In this document: positions 180-46,100 of the stretch, in pieces
How positions within the stretch are numbered: the first letter of the stretch is position 1
How the letters are laid out: every line of letters starts with the position of its first letter
Origin: Octopus sinensis
Taxonomy: Eukaryota
DNA: 64,000 nt
Reading direction: 5' to 3'
NCBI RefSeq assembly: GCF_006345805.1
Contig: NC_042999.1
Span: 68,262,001-68,326,000, forward strand
Program-made: the position numbers

Positions 180-3100
180 CATGTGTAAAAGATTCGAGCA
201 AGGTCGTTGCCAGTGCTGCCTGACTGGCACGTAAAAGCACCCACTACACTCTCGGAGTAGTTGGGATTAGGAAGGGCATCCAGCTGTAGAAACTCTGCCA
301 GATCAAGATTGAAGCCTGGTGCAGCCATCTGGTTCGCCAGCCCTCAGTCATATGTCCAACCCATGCGAGCATGGAAAGCGGACGTTAAACGATGATGATG
401 ATGATATATGTAGTTTGTAGAAATACATAAATCCAGAGGAGGAGCACACTCTAAGATGAAGAGAATCAAATATTATAATGGGGGGGACTAGTTTATGGAG
501 TTACCATGGGTTTTTCGCTCATAAGGGATTTAACCTCACAGCATATCTTCAGATCCCAAACACTGCTGGCCTAAGACCTCTTCAAAAATTTCCCCCTCCA
601 TGTTTTGAAGAGGTCTCAGGCCAGCAGTGTTTGGGGTCTGAAGATACGCCATAAGGCTAAACCCTTATGAGTGAAAAACCCAGGGTAACCCCATAAACCA
701 ACCTCCAACATTATAATATATATATATATCATCATCATCGTTTAACATCCGCTTTCCATGCTAGCATGGGTTGGCCGGTTCGACTGGGGTCTGGGATGCC
801 AGGAGGCTGTACCAGGCCCAGTCTGATCTGGCAGTGTTTCTACAGCTGGATGCCCTTCCTAACGCCAACCACTCCGTGAGTGTAGTGGGTGCTTTTTACG
901 TGTCACTGGCACAGAGGCCAGTCGAGGCGGCGCTGGCAACAGCCACGTTTGGTTGGTTCTTATATATGCCACCGGCATCACAACTACAAGTTCCATTGAT
1001 TTCGCAAGGTGTTCGCAAGCAGAGTTTTGTGTCCCAAGAAGGAAAGGTATGCATAAGTGGACTGGCTACAACCCAGGTAGAGGCCATGGGTTATGGTCTC
1101 ACTAGTCATTGCCTCGGTAAGACCTAATGTTTGAAGGTCGTATATTTATATGTATATATAATCTGTCACACACAATATATGAGAATTACTATATATTTAC
1201 CTTTCAGGGTCTAAATGATAATAACAGGGCTGTAACTATTGGTGAAATAAGGAACATCATTGAAGAAAATCAACAGAAACAGAATCCTGAAGTTAGGCAG
1301 TCTGTTCCTTTAGCTTTACCTGAAGCTCCTGTCAAGACGAAGGTTGTTGAACGCCTTACATATCGGGATCCACCATTACAAGATGTCAGTGTAGGTCAAG
1401 GCAAGTATTGTTTCCTAATCTAATCCTATCATAAAATGATTCTCCAGAAGGGTTAATTCCATAATATAATTATCCTCCAGATGTCCTTTCATCATATGAT
1501 ACTCCAGATGTGTTAATCCTTTTATAACATGATCCTCCAGATGTGTTAATCCTCTTATAACATGATCCTCCAGATGAATAAACAGCCTTCATTGCCTGTT
1601 TCTCGAAAAGCCTTACTTTCTTCCTTAGATGATCCTGCAGATAAGTTGATCTCATATTATGACCCTCTAGAAGTGTTAATCCTTTAATCTTGTACACTAA
1701 ATTCATCACTGCACCCATGGCCAACTCTTACCTTACTAACAGCACCCCTCTACATGGCCTGTACTGCTTTCACAAGCCATTCGTCTATCCCTAGCTTCCT
1801 CAGAGACCACCATATCACAGATTGAGGTACTCTGTCGAATTACAGTTGCTCCAGTCCACTCAGCCAGCAAAATTCAGTTGTAGTTCTATTTCAAAGGGCC
1901 AGCCGTATCACATTGAGCCATGCTGAATTTCACAAAAACCTACATTAAGGGTAAGCGTGTTTGTGAAGTGCTAGCCACTTGCACATTAATTTCACAAGCG
2001 TGTTCTTCCATTAACTGAATCATCATCATAACCAATGGAGTGCCAGTATAACAATATGGTGGTTTCGTTTTTGGATTTGGTTTGCAAGATTCTTTATATG
2101 AGCTCGTGTGTTGAAGCATATTCTGTTGTGTCGAGGGAGAGTCATTTTCTTTTTGTGCCTTATTATGTAACACACTCACCGGTAAACTTTCCACTTTTTT
2201 CTTATTTTTATTGTCCTAAAATTTTCGTTGCGTCTTGCAACCTTTTCAATAGTTTTGACTCTTTGGAGTGAAAACTATTGAAAAGGTTGCAAGACGCAAC
2301 AAAAATTTTAGGAAATAAGAAAAAAGTGGAAATTTTACCAGTGAGTGTGTTACATTATAAGGCACAAAAAGAAAATGACTCTCCCCAGACACAACAGAAT
2401 ATGGTGGTGGTTGACTTTCTTTTGTGCTCTTTTTAAGATGCAGTCTTTCCCTCTTGGACTCTTACAATGACACACACACACACACCCCACTGTGGCAAGA
2501 TCAAGACTCCACCTTCCAGATACTGACAATACTTCAGTGAAGAACACAACTGTACTAATGGCTGGAGTATTGTGACTACTGCCTATAGAACTCATTTCAT
2601 GTGCTCTAAGGAGTGAGAAAACTAAGTGACCAGTGGCATTTTATTGTTGCAGATGTGCATGATACCCTATCAACCACAACAAAAGGTCTGCCATCTTTTG
2701 TTAGTTCCAAGAGGTTTAAGTCTTGACTTGCACAGGAAAAAATATTTTTAAAGGCACAAAAATACCAAAACCTCAAATTCAGTAGTAACAAGTGTTTCTA
2801 TGACATGCATGCCAATTTGAAATTTTTGAAGTTATTAAACTAATGACAAGTATAAAAATAATAGGATAACCAGAGACAACAAACACTACAGGTGCTGGAA
2901 TAATCCTTCTCTAATATCTATTTATAGGGAACCTCAACGAACAGATTCTACACATTTACAGTCATTTGTTGAAATATTCTAAACTTGATGGAGACTTTCG
3001 CTCTAAAGTCTCACATCCATGTTTTGGTAAAGTAAGTTATTGTTTTTATATTCATGTTTACTATCTCTTTTTAGTATTGCTGTTGAGTTTGTTGTAACCT

Positions 3101-3254
3101 TGTGGCTGTGTGGTAAGTTGCTTGCTTACGAGCCACATGGTTCCGGGTTCAGTCCCACTGCATGGCACCTTGGGCAAGTGCCTTCTACTATAGCCTCGGG
3201 CCAACCAAAGCCTTGTGAGTGGATTTGGTAGACGGAAACTGAAAGAAGCCTGTC

Positions 3255-3306
<52 letters not shown>

Positions 3307-42762: not shown

Positions 42763-43073
42763 AATATAAGAAGGGTGGTGTGAGGTGAGAGAGTAATGAA
42801 AGGGCAAAGCAGGGAGAAATAAATACTTGACTCTCTCACTTGCAAAGGAAGTAAAAATGCATGAGAATGTCTGTGTGTAAGTTTGTGTTAGTATGTGTTT
42901 GTTTGTATAGGTATGCATGTGTGTGTGTGTGTCCGTATATGTTTGTCATGGCTTTTTTTCTTCTCCAGCCATAGAAACCATGCCAAATCAGACTGGAGTC
43001 TGGTGCAGCCCCTCAGCTTATCAACCCTGGCTAAACCATCCAACCCCTACCAGCATGGACAACAGACATTAAA

Positions 43074-43154
<81 letters not shown>

Positions 43155-46100
43155 CAGTGGCATGAAAGATAAATCAAGAAATTTACAGTAAGAAGCTTGC
43201 TTCCCAACCACATGGTTTTGAGTTCAGACCCACTGCATGGCACCTTGGGCAGGTGCCCTCTGCTATAGCCTCAGGCTAACCAAAGTGGATTTGGTTGACA
43301 GAAACTGAAAGAAGCCCATCATATGTGTGTGTATATATATATATATATACTGTATCTTCGTGTCTGTCTCTCCTATCACTGCTTGACAACAAGTGTTGGT
43401 GTTTTTATGTCCCCGTAACTTAGTGGTTCAGCAAAAGAGACTAATAGAATAAGTACTAGGCTTTAAAAAAGAAAGTTCTGGGCTCAATTTGTTCAATTAA
43501 AACTCTTGACCAGTGCTCCAGCATGACTGAAATATGTAAAAAAAAAAAAAGATAAAATAATATATTGGTTGACATTCAGAAGGGCGTCCAATCATTGAAA
43601 CCATGCCAAAGCAAGAGAATGGAGCCTGATGCTGCTCTGTGAAACCATCTCACCCATACCATCATGAAAAACAGACATTGAATGATGATGATGTTGTGGA
43701 TGGATGGATGGATGTATGTGTGAAGGGGTAAGTATATGTATGTGACGAATTGTGTTTATGTGTTTAAATCTGTGTTCTGATGGTCAATACATATTTATTA
43801 TCCGTGTTTTCTTGCTTGTTTCAACAGGGTGACTTATCAGGGGATTACTTGAAAACCATGTTGAATTTAACTGGAAATAACTAAAAGAAAAGAAAAAAAA
43901 CATTCAAGGTCAGTAAAGCACCAGTTTAACCCTTTTGATACTAACCTGTAAGACTACTTTTGCTTCTACACTGAACTGATATCCTTTGTATCCAACTTAT
44001 TCCATATCTCTTAACCCTTTTGTTAACTGAAACCAGCTCTGGCTCTGAGTACAAATGTCTTATTTTCATAAGTTTTGAATTAAACTCTTCCACCAAACCT
44101 TAGTCGCAATTTCTGTTCCCAAAACTAGCTTAATGATAACTAAGTTATTTTTCTAAATTCTTTGTTATATTTAAAGTAATTGGAAGAAATACAGAGCATC
44201 TCAAAATAAATACAGTAACGAAAGGGTTAATCCTCTAGTATTGACATTATTGTCAAAGATAATGCTTATTTATTCAAAATTGTTTTGAATTAATCATGCA
44301 TTATCTTTGTTTTGAATTAATCATGCATTATCTTGTAGCTTTGTAATTTTGATAAGGTAACTGTTAATTTTTTAAAATGATATAGTACGGTTATTGAACA
44401 TAAAACAGGTAGAATATTTTGGCTAGTCATGGCTGGTTTAAATTCTAAATGCTCAATTCATCTGTCACATTATTTTCACTCGGAGCACTTCCAGTTTTGT
44501 CGCATATTCACATTATGCCTGGACTGCTTAACTCTTTTTCTTTCTCTCACTTCCCAGGCAAGCTATGTATGCACTTCTTCAGCAAGACACCTACTTCTCT
44601 CTCTGTATTTCTTTCTCCAGTCTAAACCCCGTTCGGTTGAAGGGTCTTGTCTTGTGGGTACTTGGTGACTTTGCCAATGTTGGTTGCCATGTAAAAAGCT
44701 CTGAGTACACTCTGCGAAGTGATTGATGCTAGGAAGGACATCCAGCTGTAGAAGCTAAGCCAAAGCAGACAGAGAAACTGACAAAGAAGCCCTCTGGCTT
44801 GTCTGTTTCTGCTAAAATCATCCGACCCATGTCAGGATGGAAAAAGGGACATTAAATATGATGACAAATACAAGTTTCCTTTTTTTCAAAGTGATCTAAA
44901 TTAAAACCTTCCATCAAACTTTTATGCAAATTTATGCTCCAAACACCAGCTTCACAATGACGGCTATTTTATTAAATTCTTAATTATTAAAAAAAATTAA
45001 CATATTGCTAGCATGGAAAACGGATGTTAAACGATGATGATGATAACTGAAACAAAGGGAGTGCATTTCAGCAGAAATCTGGTCACTTGTGGAAAGATAT
45101 ACAAACCTGGAAAGTTTAATTAAAAATCTTCGCAGTGTGGTAATAAGTTTGCTTTCCAACCACATGGTTCCAGGTTCAGTCCCACTGTATGGCACCTTGG
45201 GCAAGTGTCCTCTACTATTGCCTACAGGCCAACCAGAACCTTGTAAGTGGATTTGGCAGACAAACTGAAGGAAGCCCATCATGTACGTATACATGTATAT
45301 GTGTGTATCTTTCTTTCTGTCTTTGTCCCTCACCACTGCTTCTTCAAAGAAGTAGTACCCCAACATAGCCACTGTCTAATTGAAACAAGTAAAAAATGAA
45401 AGCTAGTGTAAGGAAGCTTCTGTTTATCTTTCTAACATTATTTGCCTTGTGACCCCCATTCCTTACTCTTCATTATTCTCTCTTAACCATCTCCCTTATT
45501 TATTCTTTCTTTTACATTTCCTACCAATACTGAATCCGGATTGAGTAGTAAGGAGGAAAAAAACAATATCTTTTTAAGGAGAGGTTCAAACACAAATGTT
45601 TTTCCTAAACATTACAATGCATTATAATATACAATTATAATATACATTATTAGACATAGCATACATGGGGGAGAACATTATCAAACATAGTATATCTGGG
45701 ACCACATTATTACCTCTAGGGTAGCGGGGATTACATTATCACTCACAGCCTAGCTGGGACTGTTTTATTAGACTACATTAACAAAAATAATGTATCATCA
45801 TCGTTTAACGTCCGTTTTCCATGCTAGCACGGGTTGGACGGTTCGACCGGGGTCTGGGAATCCAGGAAGCTGCACCAGGCTCCAGTCTGATCTGGCAGTG
45901 TTTCTACAGCTGGATGCCCTTCCTAATGCCAACCACTCCATGAGTGCTTTTTACGTGCCAGGGGAGTCTGGCAGCGGTCACGATCGGTTGGTGCTTTTTA
46001 CGTGCCACCGGCACAGAAGCCAATCAAGGTAGCGCTGGCATCGGCCACGTTCGGATGGTGCTTTTTACATGCCACCGGCAAGTATAAATTATAAAACAGT

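What the first reader, a model, noticed from the sequence alone, without database searches (positions are those of the whole stretch)
1208..43884. Invertebrate octad annexin: two full four-repeat cores in one reading frame
Seen: two sets of core exons with matching sizes and phases (85/82, 95, 114, 91, 327, 182 nt), joined in frame by exon 30146-30224 and linker exon 32128-32213. All eight repeats keep GxGT(D/N) and the downstream acidic cap residue (SELSG, SETSG, SELSG, GDISG, SELSG, GDTSG, SEMSG, GDLSG). Known: most annexins have 4 repeats; vertebrate ANXA6 is the classic 8-repeat exception and can bridge two membranes. Inference: an independent ANXA6-like duplication-fusion in a mollusc, with both lobes Ca2+-competent and a long head of more than 110 aa.
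Basis: partly seen in the sequence, partly recalled or inferred. Interest (0 to 1): 0.8.

Follow-up and report, generated by a model that had tools for sequence, protein, structure and literature searches.

The report
Octopus eight-repeat annexin gene
This is a real octopus gene for a double, eight-repeat calcium-dependent membrane-binding annexin with a long extra head; public databases already predict it, molluscs and annelid worms share it, and it arose separately from vertebrate annexin A6.

Summary
Nineteen + strand exons between 1208 and 43884 encode two four-repeat annexin cores in one frame. The two sets of core exons match in size (85/82, 95, 114, 91, 327, 182 nt) and phase. Exons 30146-30224 and 32128-32213 join them.

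Every exon matches, letter for letter, residues 241-414 and 460-1127 of the public model 'annexin A6 isoform X1 [Octopus sinensis]' (1127 aa). That model uses the same junctions. The gene starts upstream of the window. The full head is about 459 aa and begins with an Fn3_assoc/CHB_HEX_C_1 beta-sandwich.

The head-plus-octad architecture is not special to octopus. It occurs in cephalopods, gastropods, bivalves, a chiton, annelids and rotifers. Contigs of 3.2-5.2 kb carry the whole protein (1043-1159 aa in eight of nine), so they must be spliced transcripts.

Trees put mollusc N-halves and C-halves in two separate clades, so the duplication predates the mollusc ancestor. An AU test rejects pairing the halves with ANXA6 halves (p = 2.6e-5).

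Verdict: a real, already annotated gene. Interest is moderate.

The parts
1208..1400 (+). First head exon inside the window (aa 241-304 of P0001). Starts at an AG acceptor and has no Met. The donor is GC (G|GCAAGT).
   Evidence: the translation is a substring of P0001; the split codon with 2928-2929 gives G305
2928..3031 (+). Head exon (aa 306-339). Holds the conserved NILHIY...DFR segment.
   Evidence: conserved in alignment A1; predicted helices 307-332
6083..6158 (+). Head exon (aa 340-364). Predicted beta-hairpin.
9320..9696 (+). Head exon with a Lys/Pro/Glu-rich tandem repeat. Each unit ends in GAG|GTA, a possible donor. The 1082-aa isoform X3 splices at 9468; the 1127-aa X1 uses the donor at 9696.
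   Evidence: 93-nt period repeat at 9419-9592
13448..13532 (+). N lobe, 85-nt exon: start of repeat 1 up to AMKGL.
17009..17103 (+). N lobe, 95-nt exon (repeat 1).
   Evidence: Pfam Annexin E 2.9e-09
18729..18842 (+). N lobe, 114-nt exon (end of repeat 1 with cap SELSG, start of repeat 2).
   Evidence: weak Pfam match, E 0.11
21421..21511 (+). N lobe, 91-nt exon (repeat 2, GLGTDE).
   Evidence: Pfam E 3.4e-11
24142..24468 (+). N lobe, 327-nt exon (end of repeat 2, all of repeat 3 with KWGTDE).
   Evidence: Pfam E 5.2e-30; 100% identical to P0001
27584..27765 (+). N lobe, 182-nt exon (repeat 4, GVGTDD).
   Evidence: Pfam E 9.8e-14
30146..30224 (+). End of repeat 4 (GDISGDY...) and start of the interlobe linker. 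The donor is GC (G|GCAAGT). Read-through would stop at 30258-30260.
   Evidence: P0001 uses the junction NVMG|GKALV
32128..32213 (+). Linker exon (GKALVQSVKNKSVKQLDKEVKMESEDVQ).
   Evidence: the peptide is conserved across molluscs
34493..34574 (+). C lobe, 82-nt exon: start of repeat 5.
36563..36657 (+). C lobe, 95-nt exon (repeat 5).
   Evidence: Pfam E 4.6e-08
37301..37414 (+). C lobe, 114-nt exon.
   Evidence: weak Pfam match, E 0.013
39589..39679 (+). C lobe, 91-nt exon (repeat 6, GLGTNE).
   Evidence: Pfam E 2.5e-11
39966..40292 (+). C lobe, 327-nt exon (repeat 7 with KWGTDE).
   Evidence: Pfam E 4e-33
42467..42648 (+). C lobe, 182-nt exon (repeat 8, GLGTDD).
   Evidence: Pfam E 9.9e-19
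43828..43884 (+). Last coding exon (GDLSGDYLKTMLNLTGNN, then the stop codon).

Best explanation
The window holds the 3' part, 42.7 kb long, of one Octopus gene. Public databases model it as 'annexin A6 isoform X1/X3 [Octopus sinensis]'.

The protein has these parts:
- a head of about 459 aa, made of an N-terminal Fn3_assoc/CHB_HEX_C_1-type beta-sandwich (encoded upstream of the window), long disordered stretches, a small helix-hairpin module and an alternatively spliced Lys/Pro/Glu-rich repeat;
- an N-terminal four-repeat annexin lobe;
- a linker of roughly 50 aa;
- a C-terminal four-repeat lobe.

Shown here: the exon structure, the single frame, the identity to the public model, the annexin fold of both lobes, intact type II Ca2+-site residues in all eight repeats, conservation of the linker, and the phylogeny.

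Inferred: each lobe binds acidic phospholipid membranes through Ca2+ held on its convex face. The flexible linker lets the two lobes lie on one membrane or bridge two, as described for vertebrate ANXA6. The head adds partner or cargo binding.

Origin: an internal tandem duplication of core exons in a head-bearing annexin, before the mollusc ancestor, and independent of the event that made vertebrate ANXA6.
For: - All 19 in-window exons map letter for letter to P0001 aa 241-414 and 460-1127, and the split codons fit. P0001 and three other Octopus models use 30224>32128>34493. An O. bimaculoides model (P0044) also uses 30224>32128.
- P0001 has 8 Pfam Annexin stretches (E 5.7e-191) plus Fn3_assoc (E 3.3e-12) at aa 34-103.
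- The AF2 model gives block pLDDT mostly 80-94 (dips to 59-77) in both lobes. Foldseek gives bovine ANXA6 1avc over 669 columns, and single lobes match tetrad annexins at TMt 0.90-0.96.
- D/E cap in 27 of 27 aligned octads in each of the eight repeats. Loops are GxGT, or (K/Q/T)xGT in repeats 3 and 7, in at least 25 of 27.
- The linker peptide is conserved across molluscs, including residues upstream of its Met, and that Met is Leu in Argonauta and others.
- Nine proteins of 967-1159 aa sit on contigs of 3240-5164 nt (P0007, P0009, P0010, P0017, P0026, P0027, P0031, P0037, P0090). Those contigs have no room for introns, so they are spliced transcripts spanning head and both lobes.
- Trees and AU test.
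- Octopus N versus C half 56.3% identity; versus Hyla ANXA6 halves 43.6-50.8%; versus invertebrate tetrads 55.7-59.6%.
Against: - No transcript reads from this species could be examined, so the octopus junctions rest on public gene models, which are predictions.
- The donor at 30224 is the rarer GC type. Read-through ends the frame after 11 codons, so a single-lobe product is possible.
- P0044 (O. bimaculoides, 856 aa) is a model that stops in the intron after the linker exon.
- Rotifer N and C halves are sisters (100/100*). An AU test rejects one clade of all 15 spiralian N halves (p 0.00125). So either the core duplicated more than once on this gene or the halves were homogenised in rotifers.
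- The trees hold no vertebrate tetrads A1-A5, A8-A11.
- Both AU groups were named after the tree had been seen.
- Ca2+ and membrane binding are inferred from sequence only.
Confidence: 0.8

Rival explanations
1. There are two tandem annexin genes. The first ends by read-through after 30224 (...NVMGKLPYGFFPYL*). The second starts at the Met inside 32128-32213 (MESEDVQ...).
For: GC donor at 30224 and a stop 11 codons downstream. An in-frame Met in the linker exon. ATTAAA at 30574.
Against: All four Octopus sinensis and O. vulgaris models join the halves. The linker residues upstream of the Met are conserved in molluscs, and the Met itself is Leu in Argonauta, Patella, Dreissena, Haliotis and Physella. 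Intron-free contigs of 3.2-5.2 kb in relatives carry head plus both lobes. The linker exon starts at a good acceptor after a polypyrimidine tract.
Confidence: 0.04
2. The gene is a true orthologue of vertebrate ANXA6, as its database name says: one ancient bilaterian octad inherited by both lineages.
For: Same eight-repeat layout with a linker. ANXA6 is the only solved structure with two matched stretches and the top Foldseek hit. Automatic annotation calls it annexin A6.
Against: ANXA6 N and C halves form one clade (98/95*), away from the spiralian octad clade (95/92*). The AU test rejects N-with-N pairing, p 2.6e-5. Both octopus halves are closer to invertebrate tetrads (55.7-59.6%) than to ANXA6 halves (43.6-50.8%). 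ANXA6 has a 19-aa tail instead of a 459-aa head (passage in PMC10506415). The literature places the ANXA6 origin in early chordates (passage in PMC10311354).
Confidence: 0.07
3. The locus makes both the octad and shorter single-lobe isoforms, by read-through at 30224 or intron retention after 32213, so the octad is only one of its products.
For: The weak-class GC donor and the nearby stop. P0044 ends in the retained intron after the linker exon with the same tail, VSIDLLYFL, that the window encodes. Head-plus-single-tetrad proteins exist in Lineus (776 aa), Tubulanus (870 aa), Lingula (731 aa) and P0239 (792 aa).
Against: P0044 is a predicted model from another species. No single-lobe model is listed for O. 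sinensis or O. vulgaris among the 120 hits shown or the 40.
Confidence: 0.25

Closest known systems
Vertebrate annexin A6 (ANXA6; PDB 1AVC, 1M9I)
   Same: Eight annexin repeats in one chain, as two four-repeat lobes joined by a linker. 45% identity over 669 aligned columns. Presumably the same Ca2+-dependent binding to acidic phospholipids, and a possible bridging of two membranes.
   Different: The halves are not position-wise orthologous. The head is 459 aa with a beta-sandwich domain, against a 19-aa tail in ANXA6. Ca2+-site residues are intact in all 8 repeats, whereas ANXA6 sites are reported in repeats 1, 2, 4, 5, 6 and 8 (passage in PMC10506415). The predicted relative position of the lobes differs (TMt 0.51, rmsd 19 A), but AF2 does not fix that reliably (pTM 0.41).
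Invertebrate tetrad annexins annotated 'annexin-B12-like / A4-like / A7-like' (solved example: Hydra annexin XII, PDB 1AEI)
   Same: These are the closest single cores: 55-60% identity to the octopus N lobe. 1AEI aligns to aa 462-771. Same fold (TMt 0.94-0.95).
   Different: They have one core only, different heads and no Fn3_assoc domain (precomputed Pfam column). The mollusc tetrads form a separate clade (100/98*).
Spiralian 'annexin A6-like' proteins with the MPSAG...Fn3_assoc head (automatic annotations only)
   Same: This gene is the Octopus member. Same head, same linker motif and same two lobes in Argonauta, Patella, Haliotis, Physella, Mytilus, Pecten, Dreissena, Ruditapes, Solemya, Liolophura and Owenia; the rotifers Adineta and Rotaria share the layout, but Rotaria was not in alignment A1 and the Owenia and Adineta linkers diverge.
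   Different: Nemerteans (Lineus, Tubulanus), the brachiopod Lingula and P0239 carry the same head with a single tetrad. Their place relative to the N and C clades is unresolved. The octopus head has its own Lys/Pro/Glu repeat cassette.

Membership tests
Annexin superfamily (Pfam PF00191) | Repeats of about 70 aa matching the annexin profile, in sets of four | tested here: met
   8 stretches in P0001, E 5.7e-191. 8 of 13 scanned core exons pass the cut-off on their own.
Annexin superfamily (Pfam PF00191) | Type II Ca2+ site: (G/K)xGT loop with an acidic residue 39 positions after the T | tested here: met
   Six repeats have GxGT and two have KWGT. The cap is E, E, E, D, E, D, E, D. D/E is present in 27 of 27 aligned octads in each repeat. 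The spacing rule itself is recalled knowledge.
Annexin superfamily (Pfam PF00191) | All-helical four-repeat disc fold | tested here: met
   AF2 block pLDDT mostly 80-94 (dips to 59-77) in both lobes. Foldseek TMt 0.90-0.96, rmsd 1.6-2.5 A to the plain solved tetrad annexins.
Annexin superfamily (Pfam PF00191) | Ca2+-dependent binding to acidic phospholipids | not testable with these tools
   Needs liposome co-pelleting with recombinant protein.
Vertebrate ANXA6 orthology group | Eight repeats in one polypeptide with an interlobe linker | tested here: met
Vertebrate ANXA6 orthology group | N half orthologous to the ANXA6 N half and C half to the ANXA6 C half | tested here: not met
   Careful tree. 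AU test: delta lnL 77.9, p 2.6e-5, with the group named after the tree was seen.
Vertebrate ANXA6 orthology group | Short N-terminal tail (about 19 aa) | tested here: not met
   The head is 459 aa. The ANXA6 figures come from a passage in PMC10506415.
Spiralian head-plus-annexin family (unnamed) | N-terminal MPSAG... Fn3_assoc/CHB_HEX_C_1 beta-sandwich | tested here: inconclusive
   Present in P0001 at aa 31-103 and conserved in 27 of 27 aligned proteins. It lies upstream of the window, so the window itself does not show it.
Spiralian head-plus-annexin family (unnamed) | Conserved mid-head segments and the linker motif GGxPP...GKxxV...EDPT | tested here: met
   Window exons 2928-3031, 6083-6158, 30146-30224 and 32128-32213 encode them.

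The most novel reading that the evidence does not exclude
Spiralian animals share a so far undescribed annexin family. It couples a beta-sandwich head of a type otherwise mostly bacterial (Fn3_assoc/CHB_HEX_C_1) to one or two annexin cores. Its octad form arose independently of ANXA6.

Several other multi-core annexins have cores that are each other's closest relatives: the centipede Strigamia and the rotifers (two cores), and the three-core Tubulanus protein. With the amphioxus two-core proteins, which fall near annexin A13 and apart from both ANXA6 and the spiralian clade, this would mean that multi-core annexins evolved repeatedly. The textbook statement that eight repeats are unique to AnxA6 would then be wrong.
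Probability: 0.55. Interest if true: 0.55.

Novelty: new variant of a known kind. Interest (0 to 1): 0.38.

Why it matters
Current reviews describe eight repeats as unique to vertebrate AnxA6. [quoted passage not shown]

This locus belongs to a second, independently formed lineage of double annexins. The lineage is conserved across mollusc classes and annelids and carries a large, partly folded head. It therefore offers a natural comparison for what a second lobe adds, such as membrane bridging, constriction or repair. It also shows that the automatic name 'annexin A6' on these invertebrate genes misleads about orthology.

The gene itself is already in public annotation, so what is gained is interpretation, not discovery.

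Tried and rejected
- Literature.
  - 'octad annexin' gave 0 papers.
  - annexin + octad by word start gave 1,170 papers, mostly 'octadecanoic' noise. As whole words it gave 4, none on invertebrates (listing only).
  - 'annexin A6-like' + mollusc gave 1 paper, on corals (listing only).
  - 'annexin A6' + octopus gave 2 unrelated papers.
  - annexin + Fn3_assoc/CHB_HEX_C gave 2 unrelated papers.
  - One search was badly framed: any two mollusc words sufficed, and it is uninformative.
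  - PMC3795353 (passages) said in 2013 that no molluscan annexin sequences had been identified.
  - Moss & Morgan 2004 and the human annexin VI gene paper were not held.
- Rfam: no match in the window.
- ESM Atlas search with the head: best scores 0.87-0.89 to bacterial Fn3_assoc/CHB_HEX_C_1 clusters, below the 0.9 line, so a lead only.
- The place of the head-plus-tetrad proteins stayed unresolved in the 51-row tree. I cannot say whether one lobe is ancestral or was lost.
- In the 72-row tree Owenia C joined the mollusc C halves (97/89*), but not in the 51-row tree. I therefore do not claim that the duplication predates the mollusc-annelid split.
- An assembly duplication artefact is rejected: the halves are only 56.3% identical.
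- I did not build or search a joined spliced model. Window searches were made exon by exon. Full-length work used the public protein P0001 that one search returned.

Full report
OBSERVATION

- N half: 13448-13532 (85 nt), 17009-17103 (95), 18729-18842 (114), 21421-21511 (91), 24142-24468 (327), 27584-27765 (182).
- C half: 34493-34574 (82), 36563-36657 (95), 37301-37414 (114), 39589-39679 (91), 39966-40292 (327), 42467-42648 (182).
- The last exon is 43828-43884.

Exons 30146-30224 (79 nt) and 32128-32213 (86 nt) keep the frame between the halves. In Pfam scans made exon by exon, 8 of 13 core exons pass the Annexin cut-off. The two 114-nt exons match weakly, three short exons give nothing, and the 18-aa last exon was too short to scan.

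First, only six repeats have a strict GxGT. Repeats 3 and 7 read KWGTDE. From recall, that is the usual form of annexin repeat 3. Second, the donor after 30224 is GC, in the context G|GCAAGT.

IDENTITY

The 327-nt exon of the N half, searched against longer proteins, gave 806 proteins at E <= 0.001 among 957 candidates, of which the best 120 were listed. The top hit, at 100% identity, is 'annexin A6 isoform X1 [Octopus sinensis]' (P0001, 1127 aa). It is followed by isoform X3 (1082 aa), two O. vulgaris models and two O. bimaculoides models.

All 19 in-window exons map letter for letter to P0001 aa 241-414 and 460-1127. Every split codon gives the expected residue. No part of P0001 aa 1-239 matches the window. 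The exon at 1208 begins at an acceptor without a Met. So the gene starts upstream, and the window holds only its 3' 42.7 kb.

I did not build or search a joined spliced model. Window searches were made exon by exon. Full-length analyses used the public protein that one search returned.

ARCHITECTURE

P0001 has eight Annexin stretches, and Fn3_assoc (E 3.3e-12) and CHB_HEX_C_1 (E 3.7e-09) over aa 31-103. An AF2 model was built from a 27-sequence alignment (mean pLDDT 69.7, pTM 0.41). It shows:
- a beta-sandwich at aa 10-106;
- disorder at 110-251, 265-294 and 363-445;
- a helix-hairpin module at 307-358;
- two confident all-helical lobes (block means mostly 80-94);
- a linker with two short helices at 786-808.

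Foldseek returns bovine annexin VI (1avc, 669 columns, 45% identity, TMt 0.51). Single lobes match tetrad annexins at TMt 0.90-0.96. By sequence, only annexin VI among solved structures gives two matched stretches.

ONE GENE OR TWO

These points speak for a possible break between the halves:
- the GC donor;
- a stop 11 codons past 30224;
- an in-frame Met in the linker exon;
- an O. bimaculoides model (P0044) that ends in the retained intron after the linker exon.

These points speak against two genes:
- All O. sinensis and O. vulgaris models join the halves.
- The linker peptide is conserved across molluscs, including residues upstream of the Met, and the Met is Leu in several species.
- Nine proteins of 967-1159 aa lie on contigs of only 3240-5164 nt. 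Such contigs can only be spliced transcripts covering head and both lobes.

I could not examine octopus transcript reads, so the junctions in this species rest on predicted models. A second GC donor of the same form (G|GCAAGT) ends the exon at 1400.

DISTRIBUTION

Proteins of about 1040-1170 aa with the same head and two cores occur in Argonauta, gastropods, bivalves, the chiton Liolophura, the annelid Owenia and rotifers. A search with the head alone (aa 1-240) gave 40 hits, all annexins. Four of them carry the head with a single complete tetrad: Lineus 776 aa, Tubulanus 870 aa, Lingula 731 aa and P0239 792 aa.

In 27 aligned octads, every one of the eight repeats keeps a D/E cap in 27 of 27 sequences.

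ORIGIN

I chose 49 of the 236 proteins then held, by name, to span taxa. One (P0162) had no core of 270 aa or more and was dropped. That left 72 core rows.

The careful tree gives:
- mollusc N halves as one clade, 100/98*;
- mollusc C halves as one clade, 100/91*;
- all spiralian octad halves, together with a nematode and a fluke tetrad, 95/92*;
- ANXA6 N and C halves together elsewhere, 98/95*.

Forcing the 15 spiralian N halves to group with the 5 ANXA6 N halves costs 77.9 lnL units, p-AU 2.6e-5. That group was named after the tree had been seen.

The octopus N and C halves are 56.3% identical. They are 43.6-50.8% identical to Hyla ANXA6 halves and 55.7-59.6% identical to invertebrate tetrads.

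So the octad is independent of ANXA6, and it predates the mollusc ancestor. Whether it predates the mollusc-annelid split is unresolved: Owenia C joins the mollusc C halves but not.

Rotifer halves are sisters, and one clade of all 15 spiralian N halves is rejected (p 0.00125). This means either repeated duplication or homogenisation of the halves. The trees lack most vertebrate tetrads.

From recall, not from any call: vertebrate annexin exons of 80+57+94+96 nt and 59+123 nt sum to the 327 and 182 nt seen here. That would make the identical fused exons in both halves a mark of an internal duplication of an already intron-poor core.

LITERATURE

- Passages in PMC10882027 and PMC10506415 call eight repeats unique to AnxA6.
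- A passage in PMC10311354 places the AnxA6 origin in early chordates, citing Morgan 1999.
- Passages in PMC3795353 said in 2013 that no molluscan annexins were known.
- None of my ten searches found a description of an invertebrate octad or of an annexin with this head. One search was uninformative.
- Supplements were closed.

VERDICT

This is a real gene, already annotated by automatic pipelines under a name that misleads about orthology. It belongs to a conserved spiralian head-plus-annexin family. As a discovery from this window it is ordinary. As a case of convergent double annexins, it is of moderate interest.

Noticed in passing
window 9419-9592, within the exon 9320-9696: A tandem repeat with a 93-nt period (1.9 copies, 80% matches) encodes the Lys/Pro/Glu-rich head cassette. 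Each unit ends in GAG|GTA, a possible alternative donor. Isoform X1 of the public model lacks exactly 93 nt (9490-9582) relative to the window, with no canonical splice sites there. This looks like a copy-number or assembly difference rather than an intron.
   Followed up: partly
window 1400/1401 and 30224/30225: The model uses two GC-AG introns in the same gene, both with the donor context G|GCAAGT.
   Followed up: partly
window 59633-59881 and 62052-62318, minus strand (probably also the 421-aa ORF 49378-50643, minus strand, which has no Pfam match): Exons of a neighbouring gene, convergent with the annexin, match the MTPAP-like central palm domain and the NTP_transf_2 nucleotidyltransferase domain (E 8.9e-07 and 3.1e-08).
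   Followed up: partly
window 3576-4034 (+), inside an annexin intron; 52098-52286 (+): Transposase remnants: DDE_3 (E 2.1e-13) and mariner-type Transposase_1 (E 2.1e-11). Many ORFs across the window share a repeated motif (...FLQLDALPNANHS.SVVGAF...), typical of a dispersed repeat family.
   Followed up: no
proteins P0036, P0041, P0046, P0052, P0085 (not in the window): These annexins have three or more four-repeat cores (for example Tubulanus, 1809 aa, three cores). Two are fused to fascin/FRG1-type Pfam domains. The three Tubulanus cores are each other's closest relatives (100/100*).
   Followed up: partly
proteins P0045, P0053 (Branchiostoma) and P0121 (Strigamia): These two-core annexins fall outside both the ANXA6 clade and the spiralian clade. 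The two Strigamia halves are sisters (99/94*). The amphioxus halves fall near annexin A13. This suggests further independent octads.
   Followed up: partly
proteins P0240, P0241, P0242, P0239: The same MPSAG...Fn3_assoc head is attached to a single tetrad core in nemerteans and a brachiopod. Whether this is the ancestral state or the loss of a lobe is unresolved.
   Followed up: partly
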